Below are positions 3,001 through 9,000 of a stretch of 64,000 nt of DNA, one piece after another (the stretch's first letter is position 1; each line of letters begins with the position of its first letter). The DNA lies in NCBI RefSeq assembly GCF_057098645.1, contig NZ_CM169472.1, one strand, 5' to 3'. The position numbers were made by a program.

Positions 3001-6000
3001 CCGGCCCGAACATGGGCGGTAAAAGTACCTATATGCGCCAGACCGCACTGATTGCGCTGATGGCCTACATCGGCAGCTATGTACCGGCACAAAAAGTCGA
3101 GATTGGACCTATCGATCGCATCTTTACCCGCGTAGGCGCGGCAGATGACCTGGCTTCCGGGCGCTCAACCTTTATGGTGGAGATGACTGAAACCGCCAAT
3201 ATTTTACATAACGCCACCGAATACAGTCTGGTGTTAATGGATGAGATCGGGCGTGGAACGTCCACTTACGATGGTCTGTCACTGGCATGGGCGTGCGCGG
3301 AAAATCTGGCGAATAAGATTAAGGCATTGACGCTGTTTGCTACCCACTATTTCGAGCTGACCCAGTTACCGGAGAAAATGGAAGGCGTCGCCAACGTGCA
3401 TCTCGATGCACTGGAGCACGGCGACACCATTGCCTTTATGCATAGCGTGCAGGATGGCGCGGCGAGCAAAAGCTACGGCCTGGCGGTTGCAGCTCTGGCC
3501 GGCGTGCCAAAAGAGGTTATTAAGCGCGCACGGCAAAAACTGCGTGAGCTGGAAAGCATTTCGCCGAACGCCGCCGCTACGCAAGTGGATGGTACGCAAA
3601 TGTCTTTGCTGTCAGTGCCAGAAGAAACCTCACCTGCGGTCGAGGCACTGGAAAACCTCGATCCGGATTCACTCACCCCGCGTCAGGCGCTGGAGTGGAT
3701 TTATCGCTTGAAGAGTCTGGTGTAATTATAATTCCCGGTAGAAAAATACTATCGGGAATATTATCTACAGCTGACGAATCAAATAAAAATACCCTGTATA
3801 ATAGGAAAGCTTATTTTACAGGGTAAAACCATGCCATCTACACGCTATCAAAAAATCAATGCCCATCACTATCGCCATATATGGGTCGTTGGTGATATTC
3901 ATGGTGAATATCAGTTATTACAATCCCGCTTACATCAACTCTCTTTTTGCCCTGAAACCGACTTACTTATTTCTGTCGGCGATAATATTGATCGTGGGCC
4001 GGAGAGTCTTAACGTCCTGCGCCTGCTAAACCAGCCCTGGTTTATCTCCGTTAAAGGCAACCACGAAGCAATGGCGCTGGATGCGTTCGCGACCGGCGAT
4101 GGCAATATGTGGCTTGCCAGCGGTGGTGACTGGTTTTTCGATTTAAATGATTCAGAGCAAAAAGAAGCTACAGATCTGTTGCTGAAATTCCATCACCTTC
4201 CACATATTATTGAAATCACTAACGACAACATAAAATATGTCATCGCACATGCAGATTATCCGGGGAGTGAATATCTCTTTGGTAAAGGAATAGCGGAGAT
4301 CGAATTACTCTGGCCTGTTGATCGTGTGCAGAAATCGCTTAATGGCGAGTTACAACAAATAAACGGCGCTGATTATTTTATATTTGGACATATGATGTTT
4401 GATAACATTCAGACGTTCGCTAACCAGATTTATATTGATACCGGATCGCCGAACAGCAGGCGGCTGTCATTTTATAAAATAAAGTAATGAGGCCGGGTAA
4501 AGCAAAGCCACTACCCGGCACTTTTTATTAGCGCTTACCTTCCGCCAGCAGCGGCGGAATGCTCGGCACCATTGGCGCGTCATCAATATCTTTCTGCGTC
4601 ATGCGGAACGCTTCCGGGTAATGTTCGCGGCTGATGCGACGTAGCGGTTCGGTATCGCGCCAGGTATAAAGGCAATGCTGGCACTGATATACCGTCCAGA
4701 CATCTTTCACCGGCGATTTCGCCATCACTTCAATCTGTTCATCGGCACAACGTGGACAAATCATCTTGTTCTCCTTATTTACGTACGGCCAGCATAGCGG
4801 TCAGTTTTTCAGCCCAGGCTTTGGTTTCCGGCAAATCCACCACCGGCTGGCTGTAGTGACCACGGTTGTCCGGGGCGACAGGCGTGGTGGCGTCGATAAT
4901 CAGCTTGTCGGTGATCCCCGCCGGGCTTGAGCCAGGGTCGAGTTCCAGCACGGACATATTCGGCAACTGCACCAAATCCCCTGCCGGATTTACTTTCGAG
5001 GAGAGCGCCCACATCACCTGCGGCAGGTTGAACGGGTCAACGTCTTCATCGACCATAATCACCATCTTTACGTAGCCCAGACCGTGCGGCGTGGTCATCG
5101 CACGCAGGCCCACCGCGCGGGCAAAGCCGCCGTAGCGTTTTTTGGTGGAGATAATCGCCAGCAGGCCGTGGGTGTACATGGCGTTTACCGCCTGCACTTC
5201 CGGGAACTCGGCTTTCAGTTGTTGATACAGCGGTACGCAGGTGGCTGGCCCCATCAGGTAGTCGATTTCGGTCCACGGCATGCCGAGGTACAGCGATTCG
5301 AAAATCGGCCTGGTGCGGTAAGAGACTTTATCGATGCGCACCACGGTCATGTTACGCCCGCCGGAGTAGTGTCCGGTAAACTCACCGAACGGCCCTTCGA
5401 TTTCGCGTTTACGGCTTTCGATGACCCCTTCGAGGATCACTTCTGAACCCCACGGCACATCAAAACCGGTCAGCGGGGCGGTGGCGATCGGGTACGGGCT
5501 TTCACGCAGCGCGCCTGCCATTTCATACTCAGACTGATCGTATTTCAGCGGCGTGGCCCCCATCAGCGTGATGATCGGATCGTTACCGAGCGTGATCGCA
5601 ATCGGCAGATCTTCACCGCGCTCTTCTGCTTTATGCAGATGCAGGGCGATATCGTGCATCGGTACCGGTTGCAGGCCAAGCTTACGCTTGCCCTTCACTT
5701 CCATGCGGTAGATGCCGACGTTCTGCTTGCCGAAGTTATCTGGGTCGAGCGGATCGCGGGAAACCACGCAGGCTTTGTCGAGATAGAAACCGCCATCGCC
5801 ATCATTTAAACGAAACAGCGGCAGGATATCGAACAGATTAATCTCGTCACCATCGACGGTGTTCTGCGCCCAGGCAGGATTGGCGCGGCGCTCCGGGACA
5901 ATCGGGAAGTTATCCCAGCGGCGGATAAACTCATCAATCTGTTTTTTAACCGGCGTGTTTGGCGGCAGGCCGAGGGAAATCGCGTGGTTCTGCCAGGAAC

Positions 6001-9000
6001 CGATGGTATTCATCGCCACGCGGGCATCGGTAAAGCCGCGAATATTATCAAACCACAGCGCGGGCGCGCCGTCGCCGATACGCCCGGTGGCGTTAGCTGC
6101 TGCTGCCAGATCCGGCTCAGCGTTCATTTCTTCGCTGATTTTCAGTAACTGGCCGTGGTCATCAAGCGCCTGTAAAAAGCTGCGTAAATCATCAAATGCC
6201 ATTATTCATTCTCCTGAGAAAAATTCCGGACCTGCGGCAATCCTTGCCAGCGCCTGGCGTGGGGATGTTCGAAGCCAAATTGATCCAGCACGCGGGCTAC
6301 CACATGGTGGACAATGTCATCTACCGTTTCGGGATGGTTATAAAAGGCAGGCATCGGCGGCACCATCGCCACGCCCATGCGTGAAAGTGCGAGCATATTT
6401 TCGAGATGGATGGTGCTAAGCGGCATTTCACGCGGCACCAGCACCAGTTTGCGGCCTTCTTTGAGCACGACGTCCGCCGCGCGCCCTACCAGGCCATCGG
6501 CGTAACCAGCGCGGATACCGGCGAGCGTTTTCATACTGCACGGAATAACGATCATGCCGTCGGTACGAAAGGAACCTGAGGAGATGGTCGCCGCCTGATC
6601 CGCCGGGTTATGGCTGAAGTCAGCGAGGGCAGCAACATCGCGGGCGCTGTAAGGCGTTTCCAGTTCAATGGTGGTTTTCGCCCACTTCGACATCACCAGA
6701 TGAGTCTCGACATTCGGCATCTCCCGCAGCGCTTGCAGTAATGCCACACCAAGAGGCGCACCGGTAGCCCCTGTCATCCCGACGATCAGTTTCATTGCTT
6801 ACTCTCTTAATTGTTCGTATACGAACATTATTATTAAAATACGCCTCTGTTCTCATTGCGGCAAGCACTGAAAAGTAACAACATCCCCTTCGTCACTGAA
6901 AAACCGCTATGATAGCGGCAGATAGTTTGCCCGGAGTTTACATGGCGTTACGAAATAAAGCGTTCCATCAGTTACGACAGCTTTTTCAGCAGCACACGGC
7001 TCGCTGGCAGCACGAGTTACCTGACCTGACCAAACCACAGTATGCGGTGATGCGCGCCATTGCTGATAAGCCTGGTATCGAACAGGTGGCACTGATAGAA
7101 GCAGCAGTCAGCACCAAAGCAACGTTGGCAGAAATGTTGGCAAGAATGGAGAATCGTGGCTTAGTCAGACGTGAACATGATGCCGCTGACAAGCGGCGTC
7201 GCTTTGTCTGGCTGACTGCCGAAGGAGAAAAGATACTTGCTGCGGCGATACCGATTGGTGACAGCGTGGATGAGGAATTTTTGGGGCGTTTGAGTGCAGA
7301 AGAGCAGGAGCTGTTTGTGCAGCTGGTGCGCAAGATGATGAACACATAGGATGCAAATTGCCGGGTAGGACGCTGACGTGTCTTATCCAGGCGACAAAAA
7401 CACAAGCTTCCCAAACAAAAGAAAAAGGCCAGCCTCGCTTGAGACTGGCCTTTCTGACAGATGCTTACTTATTCGCGGAACAGCGCTTCGATATTCAGCC
7501 CCTGCGTTTGCAGGATTTCGCGCAAACGGCGCAGGCCTTCAACCTGAATCTGGCGAACACGTTCACGGGTGAGGCCAATTTCACGACCTACATCTTCCAG
7601 TGTTGCCGCTTCGTACCCCAGCAAACCGAATCGACGTGCCAGCACTTCACGCTGTTTGGCGTTCAGCTCGAACAGCCATTTGACGATGCTCTGCTTCATA
7701 TCGTCATCTTGCGTGGTATCTTCCGGACCGTTCTCTTTTTCATCGGCCAGGATGTCCAGCAACGCTTTTTCGGAATCACCACCCAGCGGGGTGTCTACCG
7801 AGGTAATGCGCTCGTTAAGACGAAGCATACGGCTGACGTCATCAACTGGCTTATCCAGTTGCTCTGCGATCTCTTCCGCACTTGGTTCATGGTCCAGCTT
7901 ATGGGACAACTCACGTGCGGTTCGCAGGTAAACGTTCAGCTCCTTTACGATGTGAATCGGCAAACGAATAGTACGGGTTTGGTTCATAATCGCCCGTTCA
8001 ATCGTCTGGCGAATCCACCAGGTTGCGTATGTTGAGAAGCGGAAACCACGTTCCGGGTCAAACTTCTCTACCGCGCGGATCAGCCCCAGGTTGCCCTCTT
8101 CGATAAGGTCCAGCAACGCCAGACCACGATTGCCATAACGGCGGGCAATTTTTACCACCAGACGCAAGTTACTCTCGATCATCCGGCGGCGAGAGGCGAC
8201 ATCTCCACGCAGTGCGCGACGCGCAAAATAAACTTCTTCTTCGGCCGTTAACAGTGGTGAATAACCAATCTCACCAAGGTAAAGCTGAGTCGCGTCCAAC
8301 ACACGCTGTGTGGCTCCCTGCGATAACAGTTCCTCTTCGGCCAAATCGTTATCACTGGGTTCCTCTTCTACTAAGGCCTTTTCGTCAAAAACCTCAACTC
8401 CGTTCTCATCAAATTCCGCATCTTCATTTAAATCATGAACTTTCAGCGTATTCTGACTCATAAGGTGGCTCCTACCCGTGATCCCTTGACGGAACATTCA
8501 AGCAAAAGCCTGGTTCCGCCGATTTATCGCTGCGGCAAATAACGCAGCGGGTTTACGGATTTCCCCTTGTAACGAATTTCAAAATGCAAGCGTGTTGAAC
8601 TGGTTCCGGTGCTACCCATGGTTGCTATTTTTTGCCCCGCCTTCACTTCTTGTTGTTCCCGGACCAGCATTGTGTCGTTATGGGCGTAGGCACTCAGGTA
8701 ATCATCATTATGTTTGATGATAATCAGATTACCGTAGCCGCGCAGCGCGTTACCGGCATAAACAACGCGGCCATCTGCGGTCGCGATAATTGCCTGTCCT
8801 TTGCTGCCTGCAATATCAATCCCCTTGTTGCCCCCCTCAGAAGCGCCAAAGGTTTCGATCACTTTGCCCTCAGTCGGCCAGCGCCAGGTGGAGATAGGCG
8901 TACTGGTTGATGTACTGCTGACAGTCGGCTCGGTTGTGCTTGCTGTTGGTACCGTTACAGGCGCTGTGACCGTGGTCGCAGTTGGCTTGTTGTTCGGCAA

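What the first reader, a model, noticed from the sequence alone, without database searches (positions are those of the whole stretch)
4528..7349. Variable mutS-rpoS segment is the decarboxylase type (UbiX-like, UbiD-like, small subunit, MarR regulator), not the K-12 type
Between pphB and rpoS this window has a three-gene hydroxyarylic-acid decarboxylase operon with a divergent MarR-family regulator. The mutS-rpoS interval is a known polymorphic site, and this form is typical of O157-like and other non-K-12 lineages, which marks the strain background. The operon's substrate in E. coli and its control by the MarR protein remain poorly defined.
Basis: partly seen in the sequence, partly recalled or inferred. 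Interest (0 to 1): 0.4.

Follow-up and report, generated by a model that had tools for sequence, protein, structure and literature searches.

The report
Known hydroxybenzoate decarboxylase operon beside rpoS
This is the well-described O157/O145-type version of the variable mutS-rpoS region of E. coli, with an intact 4-hydroxybenzoate-inducible decarboxylase operon and its already characterised repressor HosA; it is ordinary and useful only as a strain marker.

Summary
Between pphB and rpoS the window carries three co-oriented genes: vdcD (4528-4764), vdcC (4775-6202) and vdcB (6202-6795). A divergent MarR-family gene follows. All four are intact, and all three decarboxylase genes score above NCBIfam's curated cut-offs. 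K-12 has 6.1 kb (ygbI-ygbN) where the window has 2.9 kb (4487-7422), so the "non-K-12 type" call holds.

Two parts of the interpretation need correcting.

- The operon is not specific to O157-like strains. It is in 2417 of 5426 complete E. coli genomes. What marks O157-like strains is its direct adjacency to pphB with ygbI-N absent (801 genomes, Ewers' "pattern I"). This allele is 99.9% identical to O145:H28.
- The regulator is not poorly defined. It is HosA (133/135 identical to solved structures), a published 4-hydroxybenzoate-released repressor. Its published palindromic operator, GTTCGTATACGAAC, lies at 6813-6826, just after the predicted start of the vdcB transcript.

I add that rpoS-hosA-vdcBCD-mutS is the shared arrangement in about 50 Enterobacteriaceae species, with the operator kept in all 76 loci examined. 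The cluster is therefore ancestral at this site and was lost in K-12-like lineages. It is not a pathogen-specific acquisition.

Verdict: already known, low interest.

The parts
4487..7422 (.). 2.9-kb segment absent from K-12. K-12 has the 6.1-kb ygbI-ygbN segment at this position.
   Evidence: blastn breakpoints against K-12 J53: window 3700-4486 and 7423-7600 match, and the subject interval between them is 6097 bp.
4491..4520 (.). Hairpin between the convergent genes pphB and vdcD (GCCGGGTA...TACCCGGC followed by a T-run). Terminator-like for pphB. It is the signature of this junction type; 4487-4515 has no counterpart in the K-12 form or in the form that carries both segments.
   Evidence: Fold of -18.4 kcal/mol, z-score -4.0. 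Absent from L002, L003 and L004; present in Escherichia sp. E1V33, Pseudocitrobacter and E. coli EC10. The junction was found in 527 E. coli genomes.
4528..4764 (-). vdcD: 78-aa zinc-ribbon small subunit, an allosteric activator of VdcC.
   Evidence: NCBIfam VdcD 120.6 bits against a cut-off of 30. Matches ShdD of PDB 7AE4 at E=3e-11. Cys3, 6, 28 and 31 are present; these are the Zn ligands of ShVdcD (PMC8379154).
4775..6202 (-). vdcC: 475-aa UbiD-family, prFMN-dependent decarboxylase (catalytic subunit).
   Evidence: NCBIfam VdcC 786.9 bits against 650. Pfam UbiD_N, UbiD and UbiD_C. Matches PDB 7AE4 ShVdcC at E=7e-160 over residues 3-471. R166, E269 and E274 align with the catalytic E-R-E triad, ShVdcC E273/E278.
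6202..6795 (-). vdcB: 197-aa UbiX-family flavin prenyltransferase that makes the prFMN cofactor. Its stop overlaps the vdcC start by one base.
   Evidence: NCBIfam VdcB 310.6 bits against 290; ubiX_pad 245 against 108.9. 194/197 identical to PDB 1SBZ.
6813..6826 (.). HosA operator: perfect 14-bp palindrome GTTCGTATACGAAC, 17 nt upstream of the vdcB ATG.
   Evidence: The only match in the 64-kb window at up to 2 mismatches; 0.14 expected by chance. It lies inside the published HosA-binding oligonucleotide, whose flanks match the window's minus strand. GTTCG-N4-CGAAC, or a variant with 1-2 changes, is present in all 76 related loci that have hosA and is invariant in alignment A1.
6836..6864 (-). 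Predicted sigma-70 promoter of vdcBCD: TTGCCG (6864-6859), 17-nt spacer, TATTTT (6841-6836). This puts +1 about 1-3 nt before the operator.
   Evidence: TTG and TA...T are invariant across 13 genera in A1. The position agrees with the reported operator location downstream of the transcription start. The start site itself is inferred. The consensus scan picked a neighbouring, non-conserved hexamer pair.
6908..6913 (+). TATGAT, the likely -10 element of the hosA promoter.
   Evidence: Positions 39-44 of the window sequence in A1 (A, T, A, T, A invariant across 13 genera). Function is inferred.
6942..7349 (+). hosA: 135-aa MarR-family repressor that responds to 4-hydroxybenzoate.
   Evidence: Pfam MarR 45.4 bits against 24.6. 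133/135 identical to PDB 8AGA 'Transcriptional regulator HosA'. Literature.
7358..7394 (.). REP-like hairpin just after hosA.
   Evidence: Strong stem in the fold of 7350-7470. Aligns with a REP-like sequence in strain 2013C-3033. No Rfam match.
7422..7455 (-). rpoS intrinsic terminator. Homology with K-12 resumes here.
   Evidence: Terminator scan: 15-bp stem followed by a T-run. K-12 identity resumes at 7423.

Best explanation
The segment is the hosA-vdcBCD cluster, older names slyA/hosA, pad1, yclC and kpdBCD. It is a substrate-inducible, non-oxidative hydroxyarylic-acid decarboxylase system.

Proposed mechanism:
- A HosA dimer binds the palindrome GTTCGTATACGAAC at about +2 to +15 of the vdcB transcript and blocks transcription.
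- 4-hydroxybenzoate binds HosA and releases it from the DNA.
- VdcB, a UbiX-type flavin prenyltransferase, makes prenylated FMN.
- VdcC, a UbiD-type enzyme, uses that cofactor to decarboxylate 4-hydroxybenzoate to phenol reversibly, and probably vanillate to guaiacol.
- VdcD, a Zn-ribbon protein, binds VdcC and keeps its catalytic loops in an active conformation.

What is shown and what is inferred: gene identities, the operator and the arrangement are shown here. HosA repression and release by 4-HBA are published for E. coli UMN026. The enzyme chemistry is inferred from characterised homologues.

As a locus, this is the pattern I (O157:H7/EHEC-1 type) state of the known mutS-rpoS polymorphism, here as an O145:H28 allele. 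The cluster is ancestral at this site in Enterobacteriaceae and has been lost in K-12-like lineages.
For: - Family assignments exceed the curated cut-offs.
- Solved structures of the same or homologous proteins exist: 1SBZ (194/197), 7AE4 VdcC (E=7e-160), 7AE4 ShdD, and HosA 8AGA (133/135).
- Catalytic R166/E269/E274 and the four Zn cysteines are kept. VdcD is required for activity, and 4-HBA and vanillate are substrates of the B. subtilis and S. hydroxybenzoicus enzymes (PMC8379154).
- HosA literature: repression of the operon, autorepression and release by 4-HBA (Roy & Ranjan 2016 as summarised). KD is 4.74 uM, and EMSA and BLI were done on an oligonucleotide that matches the window.
- The operator is exact at 6813-6826. 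It is conserved in 76 of 76 loci, normally 16-22 nt before vdcB, with a conserved promoter upstream.
- The genes are packed as an operon, with a 1-nt overlap and a 10-nt gap.
- The four patterns are published in PMC4209514.
- The order nlpD-rpoS-hosA-vdcBCD-mutS holds in about 50 Enterobacteriaceae species. vdcC nucleotide identity (85-87%) is similar to that of mutS (82-85%).
Against: - No enzymology of the E. coli VdcCD enzyme itself was found in the searchable library. Its substrate range and physiological direction are inferred.
- HosA has also been reported to affect fliC and motility in EPEC (Ferrandiz 2005, cited), so it may have targets beyond this operon.
- A second operator-like site between the divergent promoters, present in several genera, is degenerate in E. 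coli. That leaves the published autorepression mechanistically unexplained here.
- The segment's G+C (55-59%) is above that of its neighbours, which some authors read as foreign origin.
Confidence: 0.9

Rival explanations
1. The cluster is a horizontally acquired, pathogen-associated islet, for example taken from Shigella. In that reading its presence marks virulent lineages rather than ancestry.
For: - The distribution in E. coli is polymorphic.
- G+C is 55-59% against about 43-47% for the adjacent pphB.
- A preprint claims horizontal acquisition from Shigella dysenteriae.
- LeClerc 1999 is titled 'Promiscuous origin of a chimeric sequence in the E. coli O157:H7 genome' (reference list).
- Pseudocitrobacter shows a mosaic: vdcC/D are 92-96% identical to the window, mutS 86% and hosA 70%. 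Exchange therefore does occur at this site.
Against: - The same position between rpoS and mutS is occupied by hosA-vdcBCD in about 50 species of at least 15 Enterobacteriaceae genera.
- Divergence of vdcC tracks that of mutS.
- 2417 of 5426 E. coli genomes carry it, including isolates from pigs, chickens, a cat, a wild ibis, a marsupial, a dolphin, a river and seawater.
- Shigella is phylogenetically E. coli (general knowledge), so 97.6% similarity to Shigella says nothing about transfer.
Confidence: 0.08
2. The enzyme's real substrate or direction differs from 4-hydroxybenzoate decarboxylation. Candidates are protocatechuate or gallate decarboxylation, phenol carboxylation under anaerobiosis, or supply of prFMN by VdcB to other UbiD enzymes.
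For: - The family is reversible and broad in substrate range.
- KpdB and EcdB (B subunits) boost the unrelated AroY protocatechuate decarboxylase (PMC5779730).
- No direct E. coli enzymology was found.
Against: - VdcC matches the VdcC model above its cut-off, but AroY-type protocatechuate decarboxylases only weakly (5O3M 100.9 bits against 536 for ShVdcC).
- The cognate repressor responds to 4-HBA with a micromolar KD.
- Among other solved structures, a close relative of HosA is PcaV.
Confidence: 0.12
3. HosA is mainly a global SlyA-like regulator of motility and virulence genes. Its position next to the decarboxylase genes is incidental.
For: - It was first named as a homologue of SlyA that regulates motility and fliC in EPEC (cited).
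- Older papers annotate the gene as slyA.
Against: - HosA scores 30 bits against the SlyA equivalog, whose cut-off is 120.
- The divergent hosA/vdcB pairing and the operator are conserved in 76 of 76 loci, including loci outside the rpoS region in Rahnella, Pantoea, Erwinia and a Vibrio.
- Repression of the operon is published.
Confidence: 0.1

Closest known systems
Non-oxidative hydroxyarylic acid decarboxylase BCD systems: VdcBCD (Streptomyces), ShdBCD/ShVdcCD (Sedimentibacter hydroxybenzoicus, PDB 7AE4), BsdBCD (B. subtilis), KpdBCD and EcdBCD (Klebsiella, Enterobacter)
   Same: Same three-gene B-C-D order. All three NCBIfam models are passed. The catalytic E-R-E residues and the four Zn cysteines are kept. 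VdcC is 95-97% identical in protein to the Klebsiella, Enterobacter and Citrobacter orthologues.
   Different: Nothing structural differs. The regulator is a MarR protein (HosA), whereas B. subtilis uses a LysR-type BsdA (my own knowledge). Direct enzymology of the E. coli enzyme was not found.
HosA of E. coli UMN026 and E2348/69 (PDB 8AGA, 8PQ4, 8WSV, 8XB7, 8XZU, 8YCV, 9VRV)
   Same: 133/135 identical. The operator and flanking DNA are almost the same as the published probe.
   Different: Two conservative substitutions (I/V and V/M). The probe from UMN026 differs at a few flanking bases.
Pad1 of E. coli O157:H7 (PDB 1SBZ, 'probable aromatic acid decarboxylase')
   Same: 194/197 identical to the 6202-6795 product.
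   Different: The deposited name is outdated. Later entries for the family are named flavin prenyltransferase UbiX, so this is a cofactor-making enzyme and not a decarboxylase subunit.
mutS-rpoS (o454-nlpD) polymorphism, pattern I of Ewers et al. 2014; the 2.9-kb O157:H7 segment of LeClerc 1999 and Herbelin 2000
   Same: o454/ygbN is absent, and kpdD-kpdC-kpdB-slyA lies next to rpoS. The segment sizes (2936 bp against 6097 bp) match the published 2.9 kb and about 6 kb.
   Different: The allele is that of O145:H28 (99.9%) rather than O157:H7 (about 98%).
UbiX/UbiD of ubiquinone biosynthesis (E. coli K-12)
   Same: Same two protein families and the same prFMN chemistry.
   Different: These are paralogues, not orthologues. 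VdcC scores 173.6 bits against the UbiD equivalog, whose cut-off is 788, and 162.7 bits against PDB 2IDB. There is no VdcD partner in the ubiquinone pathway.

Membership tests
VdcC (UbiD-family hydroxyarylic acid decarboxylase subunit C) | Whole-protein score above the curated NCBIfam cut-off, with the three UbiD domains | tested here: met
   NF041204 786.9 bits against 650. Pfam UbiD_N, UbiD and UbiD_C all above gathering score.
VdcC (UbiD-family hydroxyarylic acid decarboxylase subunit C) | Catalytic Glu-Arg-Glu triad | tested here: met
   R166 in NVGIYR and E269/E274 in EGPFGE, aligned to ShVdcC E273/E278.
VdcC (UbiD-family hydroxyarylic acid decarboxylase subunit C) | prFMN-dependent decarboxylation of 4-hydroxybenzoate or vanillate | not testable with these tools
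   Needs enzyme assays. Shown only for the B. subtilis and S. hydroxybenzoicus homologues.
VdcD (zinc-ribbon small subunit) | Model score above cut-off and two CXXC knuckles | tested here: met
   NF041205 120.6 bits against 30. Cys3, 6, 28 and 31 are present, the same numbering as the Zn ligands of ShVdcD.
VdcB / UbiX-family flavin prenyltransferase | Model score above cut-off and near-identity to a solved member | tested here: met
   NF041206 310.6 bits against 290; TIGR00421 245.1 against 108.9. 194/197 identical to 1SBZ.
HosA (MarR family, 4-HBA-responsive) | MarR winged-helix domain and orthology to characterised HosA | tested here: met
   PF01047 45.4 bits against 24.6. 133/135 identical to 8AGA.
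HosA (MarR family, 4-HBA-responsive) | Palindromic operator between the vdcB promoter and the vdcB start codon | tested here: met
   GTTCGTATACGAAC at 6813-6826, within the published probe. Conserved in 76 of 76 loci.
HosA (MarR family, 4-HBA-responsive) | Release from DNA by 4-hydroxybenzoate | not testable with these tools
   Published for the UMN026 protein. Not tested for this allele.
SlyA (the name used in older papers) | Score above the SlyA equivalog cut-off | tested here: not met
   NF002926 30 bits against 120. This is a MarR-family relative, not SlyA.
mutS-rpoS pattern I (O157:H7 / EHEC-1 type) | ygbI-ygbN (o454) absent, and the decarboxylase genes plus hosA present next to rpoS | tested here: met
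   Gene order. No ygb homology in the window. Same order in O145 and O157 genomes.
AroY-type protocatechuate decarboxylase | Close similarity to AroY structures | tested here: not met
   5O3M 100.9 bits and 5NY5 92.3 bits, against 536 bits for ShVdcC.

The most novel reading that the evidence does not exclude
The O157/O145-type arrangement may not be a lineage-specific deletion of ygbI-N from a longer ancestral region. That deletion is the conclusion I recall from Herbelin et al. 2000. It may instead be an old allele of the whole interval that keeps the family-wide core rpoS-hosA-vdcBCD-mutS with only pphB added.

Grounds for this reading:
- The pphB-vdcD junction hairpin (4491-4520) is absent from the long form, so neither form derives from the other by a simple deletion or insertion.
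- The same hairpin is shared with Escherichia sp. E1V33, Pseudocitrobacter and a divergent E. coli (EC10) whose pphB is only 85% identical.

In this reading ygbI-N came in later by replacement, and the forms have been kept polymorphic by recombination.
Probability: 0.35. Interest if true: 0.2.

Novelty: already known. Interest (0 to 1): 0.08.

Why it matters
It matters little beyond typing.

- The arrangement and allele place the window in the O145:H28 / EHEC-1-related background.
- They show that the strain can, in principle, sense 4-hydroxybenzoate (a plant phenolic, paraben hydrolysis product and ubiquinone precursor) and convert it to phenol.
- The cross-genus comparison made here corrects a view still found in recent preprints, that hosA and its operon are pathogen-specific acquisitions. 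They are an ancestral Enterobacteriaceae feature that K-12 and many other E. coli have lost.

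Tried and rejected
- Rfam scan of 1-12000 at gathering threshold found nothing, so there is no known RNA element in the intergenic DNA.
- The inverted-repeat finder on 6780-6960 reported nothing, because the operator's arms abut. The palindrome was found by eye and confirmed by pattern search.
- The consensus promoter scan proposed ATGAGA/AATAAT. I prefer TTGCCG-17-TATTTT because only that pair is conserved across genera.
- A search for the operator string in the paper library found no hits. It turned up in a supplementary table, printed with one extra T.
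- Roy & Ranjan 2016, Herbelin 2000 and Ferrandiz 2005 are not held. Their content is taken from citing papers, or marked as my own recollection.
- I considered that pphB-vdcD adjacency in Pseudocitrobacter proves the short form ancestral. I rejected this as proof because that genus shows a mosaic identity pattern, which indicates exchange with Escherichia.
- Structure prediction and fold search were not run, since solved structures of the same or homologous proteins exist.

Full report
**What is there**

The first 12 kb of the window reads as follows:
- fhlA' and ygbA
- mutS (1164-3725, +)
- pphB (3831-4487, +)
- three co-oriented minus-strand genes of 78, 475 and 197 codons (4528-4764, 4775-6202, 6202-6795)
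- a divergent MarR-family gene ending at 7349
- rpoS (7469-8461, -), followed by nlpD, pcm, surE and truD

The three minus-strand genes are packed as an operon. The 197-codon gene overlaps the 475-codon gene by one base, and the next gap is 10 nt.

NCBIfam places them above the curated cut-offs as VdcB (310.6 bits against 290), VdcC (786.9 against 650) and VdcD (120.6 against 30). Pfam agrees.

**Comparison with K-12 and O157**

Against K-12 J53 the window matches up to 4486 (the end of pphB) and again from 7423 (the rpoS terminator). K-12 has 6097 bp (ygbI, ltnD, otnK, ygbL, ygbM, ygbN) where the window has 2936 bp. O157:H7 genomes show the same gene order at 97.8-98.5% identity.

At least four further forms exist besides this one:
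- K-12 type: ygbI-N only.
- A long form with both ygbI-N and the decarboxylase cluster, as in strain 2013C-3033.
- CFT073 type: ygbI-N plus an MBL-fold hydrolase and a flavodoxin.
- A variant with a TPR protein gene before pphB, as in strain EC10.

The first three forms, together with the window's own form, are the published patterns I-IV of Ewers et al. 2014 (PMC4209514). The window is pattern I, the O157:H7/EHEC-1 type. That paper's reference list also names the primary work: LeClerc 1999, Herbelin 2000, Culham & Wood 2000 and Kotewicz 2003.

**How common it is**

| Feature | Complete E. coli genomes (of 5426) |
|---|---|
| Decarboxylase segment present | 2417 |
| ygbI-N present (823 lack it) | 4603 |
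| pphB and the decarboxylase genes contiguous, as here | 801 |

So about 15% of genomes have the window's form, about 30% have both segments, and about 55% have no decarboxylase cluster.

The operon itself is therefore not an O157 marker; the absence of ygbI-N is. The window's allele is that of O145:H28. The 26 best genomes are 99.8-99.9% identical, every one that carries a serotype name is O145, and the next tier is 98.5%. The window as far as 62080 is collinear with O145:H28 RM12761 at 99.87-99.97%.

**The proteins**

- **VdcB.** The 197-aa protein is 194/197 identical to PDB 1SBZ. Later entries of the same family are named flavin prenyltransferase UbiX, so it makes the prenylated-FMN cofactor rather than acting as a decarboxylase subunit.
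- **VdcC.** The 475-aa protein matches the solved VdcC of Sedimentibacter hydroxybenzoicus (7AE4) at E=7e-160 over residues 3-471. It keeps R166, E269 and E274, the catalytic Glu-Arg-Glu triad. It matches AroY-type and ubiquinone UbiD proteins only distantly.
- **VdcD.** The 78-aa protein matches ShdD of 7AE4 and keeps Cys3, 6, 28 and 31, the zinc ligands. For the homologous enzymes VdcD is strictly required, and 4-hydroxybenzoate and vanillate are substrates (PMC8379154).

**The regulator is HosA**

The MarR protein is 133/135 identical to 'Transcriptional regulator HosA', which has seven PDB entries. It is not SlyA: it scores 30 bits against a cut-off of 120.

Roy & Ranjan (Biochemistry 2016) are cited and summarised. 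According to these summaries, HosA of E. coli UMN026 does the following:
- represses this operon and its own gene;
- binds a palindrome downstream of the transcription start;
- is released by 4-hydroxybenzoate, which induces the operon.

Cao et al. 2018 measured a KD of 4.74 uM for 4-HBA and used a probe containing a 14-bp palindromic site. Their oligonucleotide, CAGAGGCGTATTTTAATAATAAC-GTT(T)CGTATACGAAC-AATTAAGAG, matches the window's minus strand upstream of vdcB almost base for base.

The exact palindrome GTTCGTATACGAAC lies at 6813-6826. It is the only match in 64 kb, even when two mismatches are allowed.

**Conservation across genera**

I scanned one genome per species for VdcC relatives and kept the best 80 loci. 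VdcC is 88-99% identical in protein across Enterobacterales.

In about 50 species of Enterobacteriaceae the order is nlpD-rpoS-hosA-vdcBCD-mutS. These include Citrobacter, Klebsiella, Enterobacter, Kluyvera, Leclercia, Kosakonia, Atlantibacter, Franconibacter, Mangrovibacter and others. Often only 50-130 bp separate vdcD from mutS. Salmonella and Phytobacter have the cassette between the same two genes but inverted. In Rahnella, Pantoea, Erwinia and others the cluster is not near rpoS or mutS.

Nucleotide identity of vdcC to the window (85-87% in Citrobacter, Salmonella, Klebsiella and Enterobacter) is close to that of mutS (82-85%). This fits vertical descent. The cluster is thus ancestral at this site, and K-12-like strains have lost it. 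This argues against the claim in a recent preprint that hosA was acquired horizontally from Shigella.

The operator, GTTCG-N4-CGAAC with at most two changes, is present in all 76 loci that have hosA, usually 16-22 nt before vdcB.

An alignment of 13 genera (A1) shows four conserved elements:
- The operator is invariant.
- A promoter TTGCCG (6864-6859), 17-nt spacer, TATTTT (6841-6836) has invariant TTG and TA...T. It puts +1 just before the operator, as published.
- A TATGAT at 6908-6913 is invariant and is the likely hosA -10 element.
- The hosA start codon at 6942 is invariant and has a GGAG Shine-Dalgarno.

The 146-codon ORF start at 6909 is therefore not the real start.

**The junction**

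Between pphB and vdcD the window has its own hairpin followed by a T-run (4491-4520; -18.4 kcal/mol, z -4.0). The 29 bp at 4487-4515 have no counterpart in the long form or the K-12 form, which carry two different hairpins there. The short and long forms therefore differ by a replacement, not by a clean deletion or insertion.

The same hairpin occurs in three other places:
- Escherichia sp. E1V33;
- Pseudocitrobacter;
- E. coli EC10, whose pphB is only 85% identical to the window's.

This suggests the pphB-vdcD adjacency is old. I do not regard that as settled, for two reasons:
- Pseudocitrobacter is a mosaic at this site.
- Salmonella carries a ygbI homologue in the same interval, which fits my recollection that Herbelin et al. 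concluded the long form is ancestral.

**Verdict**

The finding is real and correctly described, but it is a textbook polymorphism. Its genes, regulator, ligand and operator are all published, and three of the four proteins (or close homologues) have solved structures. What remains open is narrow:
- direct enzymology of the E. coli enzyme;
- how HosA autorepresses in E. coli without the second site seen in other genera;
- the order of events that produced the interval forms.

Novelty: already known. Interest: low.

Noticed in passing
window 18610-18943 and 44430-44636: There are two type I-E CRISPR arrays. The one next to iap has 6 repeats, three repeat-spacer units fewer than in O145:H28 RM12761. 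The second has 4 repeats, one unit more than in RM12761. These are the only sizeable differences from that genome over the aligned part of the window (1-62080).
   Followed up: partly
window 6866-6885; A1 columns about 120-140: A second operator-like palindrome (GATCGTATACGAAC) lies between the divergent promoters in Pseudocitrobacter, Klebsiella, Enterobacter and Kluyvera. It is degenerate in E. coli, Salmonella and some Citrobacter. How E. coli HosA represses its own gene is therefore unclear.
   Followed up: partly
L024, L026 (Salmonella); L017, L047, L049 (Phytobacter): The hosA-vdcBCD cassette is inverted relative to rpoS. rpoS lies next to vdcD, and in Salmonella a ygbI homologue lies next to hosA.
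   Followed up: no
L018, L019, L023, L025, L042, L045, L061 (Enterobacter, Klebsiella, Leclercia): About 2.6 kb of extra DNA lies between rpoS and hosA, where E. coli has about 120 bp. Its content was not examined.
   Followed up: no
L040, L052, L054, L063, L064, L069, L073, L074, L076, L080, L083, L084: In twelve of the 80 loci no vdcB was found, and in most of them hosA lies directly upstream of vdcC. These species presumably rely on another UbiX for prFMN.
   Followed up: no
L007, L008, L009 (Pseudocitrobacter): In L008 and L009, vdcC and vdcD are 92-96% identical in nucleotides to the window, but mutS is 86%, vdcB 81-82% and hosA 70%. L007 and L008 also carry a pphB and the same junction hairpin as the window. 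This mosaic suggests exchange of the pphB-vdcDC stretch with Escherichia.
   Followed up: partly
L086 (E. coli EC10, NZ_CM169491.1): This is a fifth form of the interval: mutS, a TPR-repeat protein gene, pphB (85% identical to the window), vdcDCB, hosA, rpoS. One Pseudocitrobacter locus (L007) has a gap of matching size.
   Followed up: partly
window 3726-4487 compared with other E. coli: pphB is unusually divergent within E. coli: 98.6%, 96.2%, 93.0% and 85.0% nucleotide identity to four strains. Neighbouring rpoS, nlpD and pcm stay at 97-99.8%. pphB also has low G+C, about 42-47%.
   Followed up: no
window 909-1088 (-): A small ORF between ygbA and mutS is annotated in RefSeq genomes as a hypothetical protein of 59 aa. 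K-12 J53 and EC10 carry a shorter version of 44 aa.
   Followed up: no
L006 and L012 (MAG 'Citrobacter sp. HRGM_Genome_0066'): This metagenome-assembled genome holds two copies of the cluster. One is on a 6-kb contig whose junction hairpin is identical to the window's and whose proteins are 91-99% identical to it. That contig is probably E. coli contamination of the bin.
   Followed up: no
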